NCBI GenBank assembly: GCA_000165345.1
Contig: CM000433.1
Coordinates: 928,001 to 992,000 of the forward strand
Length of the DNA: 64,000 nucleotides
Direction: 5' to 3'
In this document: positions 734 to 59,857 of the stretch, in pieces
Layout of the letters: every line of letters starts with the position of its first letter
Position numbering within the stretch: the first letter of the stretch is position 1
Made by a program: the position numbers and the translations under genes
Notes under the pieces: model-generated
What the model saw: only the letters and a program-made list of their open reading frames with translations
What the model was told of the DNA's origin: nothing
Databases searched by the model: none

Positions 734-745
734 TTTGGCGCCAAA
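734..745. promoter_or_regulatory. E2F-like palindromic site TTTGGCGCCAAA about 70 bp upstream of the U1-C start.
   Basis: Exact 12-bp palindrome. TGGCGCCA / GGCGGGAA motifs are the over-represented E2F-like upstream motif described for Cryptosporidium (established knowledge). Confidence 0.45.
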
Positions 746-815
746 GCTATTTAATTATTTTTATTTCTATGAAAATAAAAGGTAAATTTTGTAAGAACAC
801 TAATTGGTATGAATA

Positions 816-1412
816 ATGCCAAAGTTTTACTGTGATTATTGCGATATTTACTTAACACATAGTTCTACAAATGGAAGAAAACAACATAATTTGGGTCGAA
901 AACATATTAACAATAAAATTGATCATTACAAGAATGTTATAAAAAGTCCAAGTTTCAGCGCACCATTAATGTTTGATTCGGAGTATAATGTTATTGGACA
1001 TTTAGGAAATGTTAGACAATTTCTACTAAATCTAGAAAAGCAACTTTCTGTTGACAAAAAACACACGAATAAACATGAAACAAAAGATAAAGAATCTGCA
1101 AAGCCTACATCTTATAAAAATAATAAAACACCTATAGGTAATAACAATAATCATAGTAATAATATAATTAAAGGAGGAAGCGGTAATGCTAATTATAATA
1201 CAGGAAATCCGTATGTAAATCAAGAAAGATTTCATTATAAAAGTACAAATTCCGGAGGAAATTCAGCTTTCGCAAACTATGGAAGACCGGAACATTCAAG
1301 TTATTCAAATAATTATAGTAATTATTATAGAGGCGGCCAGATTGACGACGGAGATGGTGGATCTCGAAGTTATAAAAAAGGACCTGTTCAAAACTACGGT
1401 GGTAGATATTAA
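816..1412 (+). CDS. SNRPC: U1 small nuclear ribonucleoprotein C (U1-C / Yhc1).
   Basis: The N-terminus [30 protein letters not shown] is the matrin-type C2H2 zinc finger that defines U1-C. The C-terminal tail is low-complexity and rich in N/G/Y. ATG at 816; single exon. Confidence 0.8.
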
Positions 1413-58400: not shown

Positions 58401-58992
58401 CTACAAAGGTATCCATTTCAATAACATGTTCAGAAACAGGTTCAAGTTCAGATTCAGGTCTAGATTCTGAGATAGATTCAAGTCTAGATTCAGGCCTAGA
58501 GTCGTTTCCAAGATCATTTGCAGATGTATGAATTGATTCACCTTGATTGCTTGAAATATTCCCGTTACCTAATTCAGTTTTAGTAAGTTTGGATATAGAA
58601 GTTTCTTCTTCAAGTCCAGATAAAGTATCTTTATCTAGGAAAGAGCTTCCAAGCCTTTTGGAAGCTCTTTTCCTCTTTGATGGCTTATTTGATGTATTAA
58701 AATGGGATTTCATTTGTTCAAAAATATTGTTACTTACTTCGTTCGCATCTACCAAAGAAACTCCAAGATCTCTGAGTTCCTGAGCCTCTGAGTTATCAAA
58801 GTAAGTATCTAAAATATTTTGGTTTTCATAGAATGAGACAATTCCGTCATCTTGGATCCCCTCATCTTCCTTTTCCTGTTCTTTCTCATATCCTCCTTCC
58901 TCTTCTTCAAAATTACCCAATTCTGTTGAATTATTTCCATTTGTCGGGCTCTGATCAGCCTCTTTCTTAATATAAACTATAGATTCATCCAT
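55447..58992 (-). CDS. SNF2-family ATPase, ERCC6/Rad26 (CSB)-like.
   Basis: [30 protein letters not shown] aligns with CSB [30 protein letters not shown]. Also present: [44 protein letters not shown], and helicase-C [27 protein letters not shown]...[11 protein letters not shown]. Confidence 0.75.
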   Translation of the reverse strand: [1181 protein letters not shown]

Positions 58993-59857
58993 AAAATATA
59001 AAAGAATTAAGTAAACCTAGAACTATATTAGAAATTATGACGCTTATATTGCATATATTAGCTTTAATTGTCCTAAACTCTCGGAAATTCTTCTCTTTCT
59101 TCCACCAAGAATCAACTCAAATATCTCTTATATACCTTAAATTAGTTCATTAATTAGTAAAGTTATTTAATTCTCTACTCGTAATAGATACCTTAATAGA
59201 TTTCTGACAACTCCTGCAATTCAACACACCTATAATATTTATCTTGTTTTACCGCCTAAATGGAAAAGTCAATCAAATAAATCATTACATGCAGGCAGAG
59301 AAAAAAAGAAAATCTATTCTAAAAAAACCTACCAGTTGGATTTGTACAAAATAACAATTTAATGAAATTGGTTATATTAGCTTAAATTTGTTTTTGGCCT
59401 TTTTTTCTCTCTATTTTTAACATTCAATTTATAAATAATCCAAATTTCCCGCCAAAACACTAGTGGCAATTAAATATTTTATAAGGCATGAATAAATAAT
59501 AGCAATTAAAAATATATTTGTATATTTATTGCATATAAAAAGATTTAAAAAAAAATCTGATTTAAAAATAATTTCAGATAGGAAAATTATATTAGTAAGA
59601 AAAGTTAAAGGTATAAATTGCAAGATTGAAGTTAAGTTTTTATGTAAATTCAACGATAGAGAAAAAATTAAGTGCACATAGAAACCAATAGTTGGATTGT
59701 GGGAGTCTCTAATGATTAAATATATATATCAAAAAGGGCCCAGAAAAAGTAATATTTGCACGTGTGTGCTCCATAAATTCTTCCTCAATATAAAGCAGAA
59801 TTAATTACTACACGGATTAGACTTAAGAAAACGATTTTTAAATTTGAATCTTAAAAC

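What the first reader, a model, noticed from the sequence alone, without database searches (positions are those of the whole stretch)
734..59458. Dense E2F-like promoter grammar (TTTSSCGCSAAA / GGCGGGAA) in almost every intergenic spacer
I count more than 20 intergenic occurrences. They are: 734-745 TTTGGCGCCAAA; 3001-3015; 3678-3690; 3738-3750; 6172-6185, about 80 bp upstream of the U2 5' end; 6426-6437; 6477-6493; 10891-10903; 14386-14396; 15875-15890; 16950-16963; 22965-22976; 23336-23350; 28806-28816; 31120-31134; 34888-34914, an inverted pair; 38668-38680; 42784-42796; 46621-46637; 52067-52086, a palindromic pair; 53807-53820; 59444-59458. Inside CDS the motif is rare. This matches the E2F/DP-like motif reported as over-represented upstream of Cryptosporidium genes. 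The paired or inverted arrangements (34888, 52067) are less commonly discussed.
Basis: partly seen in the sequence, partly recalled or inferred. Interest (0 to 1): 0.5.

Follow-up and report, generated by a model that had tools for sequence, protein, structure and literature searches.

The report
Known E2F-like promoter boxes in Cryptosporidium
The GC-rich boxes (TTGGCGCCAAA / TTCCCGCCAAA) between genes in this Cryptosporidium parvum window are real, far above chance, found only in spacers that hold a gene start, and conserved across the genus, but they are the already published "E2F-like" motif, so this is a correct rediscovery.

Summary
The window is Cryptosporidium parvum DNA (99.9% identical to CP044418.1). 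All 22 listed loci exist as written. They share a core GGCG[GC][GC] with T-rich and A-rich flanks (consensus TT-SSCGCC-AAA), which matches the canonical E2F site TTTSSCGC.

- **Enrichment:** there are 24 cores in non-coding DNA, against 0.7 expected from dinucleotide shuffles (0 of 1000 shuffles reach 24).
- **Placement:** 18 of 20 spacers that contain a gene 5' end carry at least one core. The nine convergent (3'-3') spacers carry none. Density inside genes is 6.6-fold lower than in those 5'-end spacers.
- **Geometry:** there is no fixed distance to the ATG (78-783 bp) and no orientation bias. Single sites in divergent spacers sit near the centre (P = 6e-4).
- **Conservation:** sites recur at orthologous spacers in C. 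meleagridis, C. canis and C. felis, and in weaker form in C. xiaoi and C. muris. Both flagged pairs are conserved as pairs.

The literature already reports this as the most over-represented C. parvum upstream motif and the main motif in open-chromatin peaks. E2F/DP binding has never been shown directly.

Verdict: observation confirmed, interpretation supported, already known. The new details are small.

The parts
734..745 (.). E2F-like box TTTGGCGCCAAA, a full palindrome, 71-82 bp upstream of the zf-U1 gene ATG (816)
   Evidence: C. felis has TTATAGCGCCAACA 73 bp upstream of the orthologous ATG.
3001..3015 (.). E2F-like box, core CCCGCC at 3004-3009, about 359 bp from the Metallophos ATG in a divergent spacer
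   Evidence: C. felis has CCCGCC 448 bp from the same gene.
3678..3750 (.). Two-box module (TTTGGCGCCGAAA at 3678 and TTTGGGCGGCAA at 3738), 62 bp apart, 432-494 bp upstream of the IMCp ATG, with a G-box between the boxes
   Evidence: C. felis keeps both boxes 61 bp apart, and 102 of 163 aligned columns are identical.
5899..6093 (-). U2 snRNA gene, given as context for the next box
   Evidence: Rfam RF00004, 157 bits, full length.
6172..6185 (.). E2F-like box, reading TTTCCCGCCTAAA in the U2 sense, 83-88 bp upstream of the U2 5' end
   Evidence: C. felis has TTTACCGCCTAAA upstream of its U2.
6426..6437 (.). Weak variant TTGGCGGTAAC (core GGCGGT) in the U2|DHX37 spacer
   Evidence: C. felis has TTGGCGGTAATT in the same spacer.
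6477..6493 (.). E2F-like box TTTGGGCGGGCATTC, 360 bp upstream of the DHX37 ATG
   Evidence: C. felis has CTGGCGGGAAC 374 bp upstream.
10891..10903 (.). E2F-like box TTCGGCGGGAAAA, 195 bp upstream of the ATG at 11089
   Evidence: C. felis has TTTCGGCGGGAAAA 216 bp upstream.
14386..14396 (.). E2F-like box GTTGGCGCCAT, 153 bp upstream of the ATG at 14241 (minus-strand gene)
   Evidence: C. felis has TTAGGCGCCATA at 136 bp.
14893..14898 (.).
   Evidence: No counterpart found in C. felis.
15875..15890 (.). E2F-like box TTTGGCGCCATAT at the centre of a 396-bp divergent spacer
   Evidence: C. felis has ATTTGGCGCCTTAC.
16950..16963 (.). E2F-like box TTTTGGCGCCAACT, 96 bp after the upstream stop codon and 644 bp before the next ATG
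   Evidence: C. felis has TTTTAGCGCCAAAT in the same spacer.
22965..22976 (.). E2F-like box TAGGCGCCACCC, overlapping a G-box-like CCCCAC, 410 bp upstream of the ATG at 22562
23336..23350 (.). E2F-like box GTTTGCCGCCAAATA, followed directly by CATGCA
27086..27091 (.).
   Evidence: Identical core and flanks in C. parvum, C. meleagridis, C. canis and C. felis.
28806..28816 (.). E2F-like box within the composite CCCCACATGCACACAGGCGCCAAAT, 334 bp upstream of the Sec1 ATG
   Evidence: The composite is kept in four species.
31120..31134 (.). E2F-like box GAGCCCGCCAAAATC, 104 bp after the Sec1 stop codon and 470 bp before the next ATG
   Evidence: Kept in C. meleagridis and C. canis at 104 and 89 bp from the stop; absent in C. 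felis.
34888..34925 (.). Inverted pair CCGCC-N7-GGCGG followed by the G-box TTTTTGGGGGG, about 300 bp upstream of the proteasome beta5 ATG
   Evidence: The pair plus G-box is present in all six species, with an inner gap of 7, 7, 7, 9, 10 and 33 nt.
38668..38680 (.). E2F-like box CTGGCGCCAAAAT, embedded in a longer conserved block
   Evidence: Kept in C. meleagridis and C. felis; shifted to a GGCGCG form in C. xiaoi.
42784..42796 (.). E2F-like box TTCCCGCCATATG, 380 bp upstream of the DUF3522 gene ATG
   Evidence: C. felis has GGCGGGAAAG in the same spacer.
46621..46637 (.). E2F-like box ATTTGCCCGCCTAAAAT at the centre of a 1467-bp divergent spacer
   Evidence: C. canis has two cores and C. 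felis only GGCGGT.
52067..52086 (.). Pair GGCGCC-N8-GGCGCC, 337-351 bp upstream of the WD40 gene ATG (51735)
   Evidence: The pair is kept in C. felis (14 bp between core starts) and C. canis (13 bp), although the inner spacer sequence has diverged.
53807..53820 (.). E2F-like box CATGGCGCCATTCC in a 194-bp divergent spacer
   Evidence: C. canis has TTTGGCGCCATGC; C. felis has none.
59444..59458 (.). E2F-like box ATTTCCCGCCAAAAC at the centre of the SNF2|694aa divergent spacer
   Evidence: C. felis has ATTCGGCGGGAAAG and C. canis TTTTGGCGGGAAAC at the spacer centre.

Best explanation
These boxes are copies of the known Cryptosporidium 'E2F-like' promoter element. It is a symmetric site of about 12 bp (TT-SSCGCC-AAA, which contains the canonical E2F site TTTSSCGC) that works in either orientation. 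It marks almost every spacer from which transcription starts, typically once per one-way promoter and once, near the centre, per two-way promoter.

The most likely mechanism is that an E2F/DP winged-helix heterodimer binds each box. C. parvum is reported to encode two or three E2F and two DP proteins. Binding would open chromatin and drive or permit RNA polymerase II initiation in one or both directions. Paired boxes would take two dimers.

Shown here: the enrichment, the restriction to spacers that contain a gene start, the lack of orientation or distance constraint, and conservation across the genus.
Taken from the literature: the motif lies in open-chromatin peaks, and the organism has E2F/DP genes.
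Inferred only: that E2F/DP is the binding factor, and that the sites activate transcription.
For: - **Enrichment:** 24 cores against 0.72 expected, with 0 of 1000 shuffles reaching 24. GGCGCC is the top non-coding k-mer.
- **Consensus:** the flanks match the E2F site. The canonical 8-mer TTTSSCGC occurs 12 times in spacers with a gene start, 0 times in convergent spacers and 3 times in genes.
- **Placement:** 18 of 20 spacers with a gene start are occupied and 0 of 9 convergent spacers are. By base pairs P = 0.012, and occupancy is more even than random placement (P = 0.001). Convergent spacers lack even 5-mer cores.
- **Control motif:** TGCATGCA is not excluded from convergent spacers.
- **Two-way promoters:** single sites in divergent spacers sit centrally, P = 6e-4.
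- **Same enrichment in five other species:** for example, C. felis has 23 cores against 2.3 expected.
- **Site-by-site conservation** occurs inside spacers that otherwise do not align.
- **Literature:** PMC3734150, PMC4117751, PMC7840661, PMC12246861 and bioRxiv 10.1101/2025.01.17.633476.
Against: - No experiment shows E2F/DP bound to these sites in Cryptosporidium; the 2025 review says most regulatory components lack validation.
- The boxes sit in front of almost every kind of gene here (proteasome, Sec1, IMC protein, RNA helicase, U2 snRNA). That does not fit a classical cell-cycle E2F regulon.
- Rb-family partners are reported absent.
- There is no fixed distance to the ATG. True transcription start sites are unknown here, so a promoter-proximal position is not demonstrated.
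- Two spacers with a gene start have no core. PP2C|Sld5 also lacks one in C. felis. 476aa|frataxin is cut by the window end.
- In C. xiaoi and C. muris the strict 6-mer is rare, and only the 5-mer core is enriched.
Confidence: 0.8

Rival explanations
1. The boxes are real promoter elements, but a different protein reads them, for example a C2H2 zinc finger, an untested ApiAP2 domain or an unknown factor. The likeness to E2F sites would then be coincidental.
For: - No direct binding data exist.
- The boxes are near-universal rather than tied to the cell cycle.
- Several copies contain GGGCGG, which resembles a GC box.
- E2F transcript profiles do not track the expression of many motif-bearing gene clusters.
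Against: - The palindromic TTGGCGCCAA form with T and A flanks fits the E2F/DP dimer site rather than a GC box.
- Cryptosporidium is reported to be the only apicomplexan that keeps E2F/DP, and the only one with this motif so abundant.
- Protein-binding arrays of C. parvum AP2 domains returned TGCAT, CACACA and G-box motifs, and the authors do not treat the E2F motif as an AP2 site.
Confidence: 0.14
2. The boxes act mainly as something other than promoter elements, for example replication origins, chromatin boundary or centromere-loading sites, or terminators.
For: - They are GC-rich islands in DNA that is 22% G+C.
- In some tandem spacers the box lies close to the upstream gene's stop codon: 16954 is 96 bp after the stop and 31123 is 104 bp after it.
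Against: - Their complete absence from all nine 3'-3' spacers rules out a terminator role.
- CENH3 sites in C. parvum are GA-rich and lie mostly in coding DNA.
- The motif is the main one in accessible chromatin at transcript 5' ends.
- An origin role is not excluded, but nothing supports it.
Confidence: 0.05
3. The pattern is a chance or composition artefact of picking GC-rich words out of AT-rich spacers.
Against: - 0 of 1000 dinucleotide shuffles reach the observed count.
- Other G/C hexamers are not enriched.
- The sites are conserved at orthologous positions in species whose spacers no longer align.
Confidence: 0.01

Closest known systems
Cryptosporidium parvum 'E2F-like' upstream motif: 5'-TGGCGCCA-3', [C/G]GCGC[G/C], GGCGGG (Bankier 2003; Mullapudi 2007; Oberstaller 2013 = PMC3734150; Xiao et al. 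2025 bioRxiv 10.1101/2025.01.17.633476)
   Same: Same organism, same core and flanks, and the same upstream over-representation. It is reported in most promoters, in ATAC-seq peaks (usually one site per peak, more than half of them two-way promoters) and upstream of antisense lncRNAs. The window is simply a local sample of this genome-wide feature.
   Different: Nothing essential differs. Details I did not find in those papers:
- complete absence from 3'-3' spacers;
- central placement in divergent spacers;
- site-by-site conservation from C. parvum to C. felis, and partly to C. muris;
- conserved pair geometry at two loci;
- a conserved box upstream of U2 snRNA.
Canonical E2F/DP sites of animals and plants (TTTSSCGC), including overlapping inverted sites such as TTTCGCGCCAAA in the DHFR promoter and the paired inverted sites of the adenovirus E2 promoter (the named examples are from my own knowledge; the consensus is as cited in PMC3734150)
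   Same: It has the same 6-bp symmetric CG core with a T-run on one side and an A-run on the other. It works in either orientation and occurs as single, palindromic or paired sites.
   Different: In animals and plants the sites mark a cell-cycle and DNA-replication regulon controlled through Rb-family proteins. Here they sit in front of nearly every gene class and a snRNA gene, and Rb is reported absent. The element therefore behaves more like a general promoter element.
ApiAP2 motif TGCATGCA (AP2_1), the other major intergenic motif of Cryptosporidium and other Apicomplexa
   Same: It is also palindromic and strongly over-represented in the non-coding DNA of this window (24 counts over both strands against 0.33 expected).
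   Different: It has a different sequence and a different known binder: AP2 domains, shown by protein-binding arrays. It is not excluded from convergent spacers. It is reported absent from sporozoite ATAC-seq peaks.

Membership tests
C. parvum E2F-like upstream motif (cis-element class) | Core [C/G]GCGC[G/C] or GGCGGG with T-rich and A-rich flanks | tested here: met
   The matrix from 24 sites gives TT-SSCGCC-AAA(A/T). The canonical 8-mer TTTSSCGC occurs 15 times, 12 of them in spacers with a gene start.
C. parvum E2F-like upstream motif (cis-element class) | Over-represented in non-coding upstream DNA relative to background and to coding DNA | tested here: met
   24 cores against 0.72 expected from dinucleotide shuffles, 0 of 1000. 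Density is 1.58 per kb in spacers with a gene start and 0.24 per kb in genes.
C. parvum E2F-like upstream motif (cis-element class) | The sequence comes from Cryptosporidium | tested here: met
   Proteasome beta5 is 100% identical to C. parvum Iowa II. The DNA is 99.93% identical to CP044418.1.
Functional promoter element | Located where transcription starts, not where it ends | tested here: met
   18 of 20 spacers with a gene 5' end are occupied and 0 of 9 convergent spacers are. Fisher's exact test on these counts gives about 5e-6 (my own arithmetic). True start sites were not available.
Functional promoter element | Preferred distance or orientation relative to the gene start | tested here: not met
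   Distances to the ATG range from 78 to 783 bp (median 360). Relative position in tandem spacers is uniform (KS P = 0.62). Orientation is 6 same-sense against 7 opposite. Central placement in divergent spacers is significant.
Functional promoter element | Purifying selection, seen as conservation in related species beyond the surrounding DNA | tested here: met
   Orthologous sites occur in C. meleagridis, C. canis and C. felis, and partly in C. xiaoi and C. muris.
Genuine E2F/DP binding site | The organism encodes E2F and DP winged-helix proteins | not tested
   None is encoded in this window (Pfam scans). The literature lists two or three E2F and two DP genes.
Genuine E2F/DP binding site | Physical occupancy or in vitro binding by E2F/DP | not testable with these tools
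   No such data were found in the papers searched. The 2025 review says validation is lacking.
Genuine E2F/DP binding site | Target genes biased towards cell-cycle and DNA-replication functions, as in the classical regulon | tested here: not met
   Boxes precede the replication gene Sld5 but also genes for proteasome beta5, Sec1, IMCp, DHX37, SNF2 and U2 snRNA. The distribution is near-universal.

The most novel reading that the evidence does not exclude
The box is not a regulon-specific switch. It is the general promoter-defining element of Cryptosporidium, used once per transcription unit or two-way promoter, and also upstream of the U2 snRNA gene. Its positions have been held through the radiation of the genus. 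Where two boxes occur, their close spacing is itself under selection. Core starts are 13-14 bp apart upstream of the WD40 gene in three species. An inverted pair plus G-box lies upstream of proteasome beta5 in six species. That would point to cooperative binding of two E2F/DP dimers.
Probability: 0.35. Interest if true: 0.4.

Novelty: already known. Interest (0 to 1): 0.15.

Why it matters
Cryptosporidium is reported to be the only apicomplexan that kept E2F/DP factors, and this motif appears to mark most of its promoters. It is therefore central to how this hard-to-study pathogen switches genes on. That point is already made in the literature.

This window adds a clean local demonstration and some candidate sites for reporter mutagenesis:
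- the two-way promoter box at 15878;
- the conserved pair at 52067-52086;
- the pair plus G-box at 34888-34925;
- the box upstream of U2.

It does not open a new question.

Tried and rejected
- **Fixed distance to the ATG:** not found. Distances range from 78 to 783 bp, and position in tandem spacers is uniform.
- **Orientation bias relative to the gene:** not found (6 against 7).
- **General GC-island effect:** rejected, because other G/C hexamers are not enriched.
- **Link to the proposed holocentric CENH3 sites:** rejected, because those sites are GA-rich and mostly in coding DNA.
- **Conserved block around 38640-38740 as a known RNA:** a permissive Rfam scan found nothing credible. A four-species consensus fold gave 11 pairs with no compensatory change. 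The 23-mer occurs at this locus only. It remains unexplained.
- **Novel ncRNA coordinates:** the supplement of the small-RNA paper (PMC9465071) is not held, so I could not check them.
- **(TGCA)n runs in convergent spacers:** present only in C. parvum and C. meleagridis, so not deeply conserved.
- **Strict 6-mer in C. xiaoi and C. muris:** only 2 hits each; the 5-mer core had to be used to see the enrichment there.
- Other snRNA loci and the E2F/DP proteins themselves could therefore not be examined.
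Full report
**Source of the window.** The window has about 26% G+C and a compact, gene-dense layout. Its proteasome beta5 protein (35201-36073) is 100% identical to that of Cryptosporidium parvum Iowa II. The DNA at 25201-46073 is 99.93% identical to C. parvum CP044418.1.

I transferred the NCBI gene calls from that record into window coordinates. I added the single Rfam hit, a U2 snRNA at 5899-6093 on the minus strand. 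This gives 29 genes and 29 spacers: 11 tandem, 9 divergent and 9 convergent.

**Checking the observation.** The exact title patterns are narrow:
- TTTSSCGCSAAA matches 3 loci, against 0.03 expected.
- GGCGGGAA matches 8 places, against 0.20 expected, and 3 of them are inside genes.

The feature the loci share is the core GGCG[GC][GC]. With a rough ORF map, 24 cores lie in non-coding DNA, against 0.72 expected from dinucleotide-preserving shuffles of the same segments; 0 of 1000 shuffles reach 24.

An unbiased ranking of all 6- to 8-mers in non-coding DNA puts GGCGCC first, followed by TGCATGCA, CCCGCC, CCCCAC and CACACA. All-G/C control hexamers such as GGGCCC and GCCGGC are not enriched.

Aligning the 24 sites gives TT-SSCGCC-AAA(A/T), which contains the canonical E2F site TTTSSCGC. 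That 8-mer occurs 15 times: 12 in spacers with a gene start, none in convergent spacers and 3 in genes.

**Where the sites sit.** With the proper gene map:

| Region | Size | Cores | Density |
|---|---|---|---|
| Tandem and divergent spacers (hold a gene 5' end) | 15,179 bp | 24 | 1.58 per kb |
| Convergent spacers (nine, 3'-3') | 3,059 bp | 0 | 0 |
| Genes | 45,762 bp | 11 | 0.24 per kb |

- 18 of the 20 tandem and divergent spacers are occupied.
- The convergent spacers lack even relaxed 5-mer cores.
- The chance of no core falling in convergent DNA is 0.012 by base pairs. Occupancy of 18 of 20 is more even than random placement (P = 0.001).
- As a control, TGCATGCA is not excluded from convergent spacers: 4.6 per kb there against 1.8 per kb in promoter-type spacers.
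- There is no preferred distance to the ATG. The range is 78-783 bp with a median of 360, and relative position in tandem spacers is uniform.
- There is no orientation preference: 6 same-sense against 7 opposite.
- The six divergent spacers with a single site hold it near the centre, at relative positions 0.38-0.65 (P = 6e-4). This is what a shared two-way promoter would show.
- The 11 genic cores still exceed their shuffle expectation of 1.27. Eight of them lie within 365 bp of a gene's 3' end. That fits the published finding of E2F motifs upstream of antisense lncRNAs, which are biased towards mRNA 3' ends. I did not test this further.

**Conservation.** I fetched syntenic loci from C. meleagridis, C. 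canis, C. felis, C. xiaoi and C. muris. Each species shows the same enrichment in its promoter-type spacers:
- C. meleagridis: 6 strict cores against 0.14 expected.
- C. canis: 12 against 1.4.
- C. felis: 23 against 2.3.
- C. xiaoi and C. muris have only 2 strict hits each, but the 5-mer core is enriched (6 against 0.9, and 9 against 0.6).

Sites recur at orthologous places even where the spacers barely align. Some examples:
- The box 195 bp upstream of the ATG at 11089 has a C. felis counterpart at 216 bp.
- The two-box module upstream of IMCp keeps a spacing of 62 bp in C. parvum and 61 bp in C. felis.
- ACACACAAAAGGCGGCAAGC in the Sld5|403aa spacer is kept in four species.
- The PP2C|Sld5 spacer lacks any core in both C. 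parvum and C. felis.

**The paired arrangements.**
- Upstream of the WD40 gene the sequence is GGCGCCaaaatcttGGCGCC in C. parvum, GGCGCCaccgaggtGGCGCC in C. felis and GGCGCCaacatttGGCGCC in C. canis. The cores and the 13-14 bp spacing between core starts are kept, while the inner bases have diverged.
- Upstream of proteasome beta5, an inverted CCGCC...GGCGG pair followed by a G-box (TTTTGGGGGG or TTGAGGGG) is present in all six species. The inner gap is 7, 7, 7, 9, 10 and 33 nt.

**The U2 site.** The core at 6176-6181 lies 83-88 bp upstream of the U2 5' end. In the U2 sense it reads TTTCCCGCCTAAA. C. felis has TTTACCGCCTAAA upstream of its U2. Both also share a 21-nt element, AGAACCATCATCAAATCGTGT, about 39-59 bp upstream of the U2 5' end (window 6132-6152); this element may be the snRNA proximal promoter element.

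**What is already known.**
- The motif was noted on chromosome 6 in 2003. It was later named E2F-like and reported as the most over-represented upstream motif in C. parvum.
- It lies upstream of 161 of 200 co-expression clusters.
- It is the dominant motif in sporozoite ATAC-seq peaks. [quoted passage not shown]
- It is the top motif upstream of antisense lncRNAs, 22.6% of which have two copies.
- Cryptosporidium is reported to be the only apicomplexan that retains E2F/DP, but binding has not been shown experimentally.
- CENH3 sites are GA-rich, which gives no support to a centromere reading.

**Conclusion.** The likely mechanism is that E2F/DP dimers bind a symmetric box that defines one-way and two-way promoters, independent of orientation and without a strict distance rule. 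The trans-acting factor and the activating role remain inferred.

The main caveat for the 'E2F' label is functional. The boxes are nearly universal rather than specific to the cell cycle, and Rb is reported absent. The element works like a general promoter element that looks like an E2F site.

The small additions from this analysis are the strict absence from 3'-3' spacers, the central placement in divergent spacers, genus-wide footprints, conserved pair geometry at two loci, and a conserved box upstream of U2.

Noticed in passing
window 38640-38740 (spacer between the minus-strand genes at 36705-38153 and 39322-42411): A block around the E2F-like box is conserved far beyond the size of a factor binding site. 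TGACATGTTACCACCTGGGTGCA is identical in C. parvum, C. meleagridis and C. felis and has one mismatch in C. xiaoi. It is followed by GGCGCCAAAATGATT and, about 35 nt further on, TTACACCCTT. The 23-mer occurs at this locus only. There is no Rfam match and no covariation support for a fold. It could be a composite promoter or a small unannotated RNA.
   Followed up: partly
window 6132-6152, minus strand: AGAACCATCATCAAATCGTGT lies about 39-59 bp upstream of the U2 snRNA 5' end. It is conserved with one mismatch in C. felis, although the flanking DNA is not. It is a candidate snRNA proximal promoter element. Other snRNA loci could not be fetched for comparison.
   Followed up: partly
window 1332, 18071, 18314, 49660, 55723-55792: E2F-like cores inside genes cluster within about 365 bp of the 3' ends of four genes, and each of those genes faces a convergent neighbour. 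The GGCGGGCGCGCC-type cluster in the SNF2 gene recurs at the same place in C. felis and C. canis. These may be promoters of the antisense lncRNAs described in PMC7840661, or simply conserved coding sequence.
   Followed up: no
window 18696-18717 and 36400-36417: (TGCA)n runs, which are tandem copies of the ApiAP2 motif TGCATGCA, sit in two convergent 3'-3' spacers where E2F-like boxes are absent. The run at 36400 is shared only with C. meleagridis.
   Followed up: partly
window 3640-3800: An extended conserved regulatory module lies upstream of the IMCp gene. It holds two E2F-like boxes, TTATGTGGCC, a G-box (AGTGGGGTGA) and AAACTAGTAAAA, which matches the published unknown motif [A/C]AACTA. 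102 of 163 aligned columns are identical to C. felis.
   Followed up: partly
window 25078-26143: The spacer upstream of the PP2C gene has no E2F-like core at all, in C. parvum or in C. felis. Near 25864-25935 it carries three CACACA motifs and a GCATGC. It may be an AP2-only promoter.
   Followed up: no
window 28792-28816: The composite CCCCACATGCACACAGGCGCCAAAT packs a G-box-like word, TGCA, CACACA and the E2F-like box back to back. It is kept in C. parvum, C. meleagridis, C. canis and C. felis.
   Followed up: no
window 18864-22562; single N bases at 21874, 42744, 42767, 43538-43643: Public annotations disagree here: one record calls a single 1193-aa gene with an intron, others call two genes of 783 and 320 aa. 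The window carries nine scattered N bases, which break the reading frame of the CH-domain gene near 43580.
   Followed up: no
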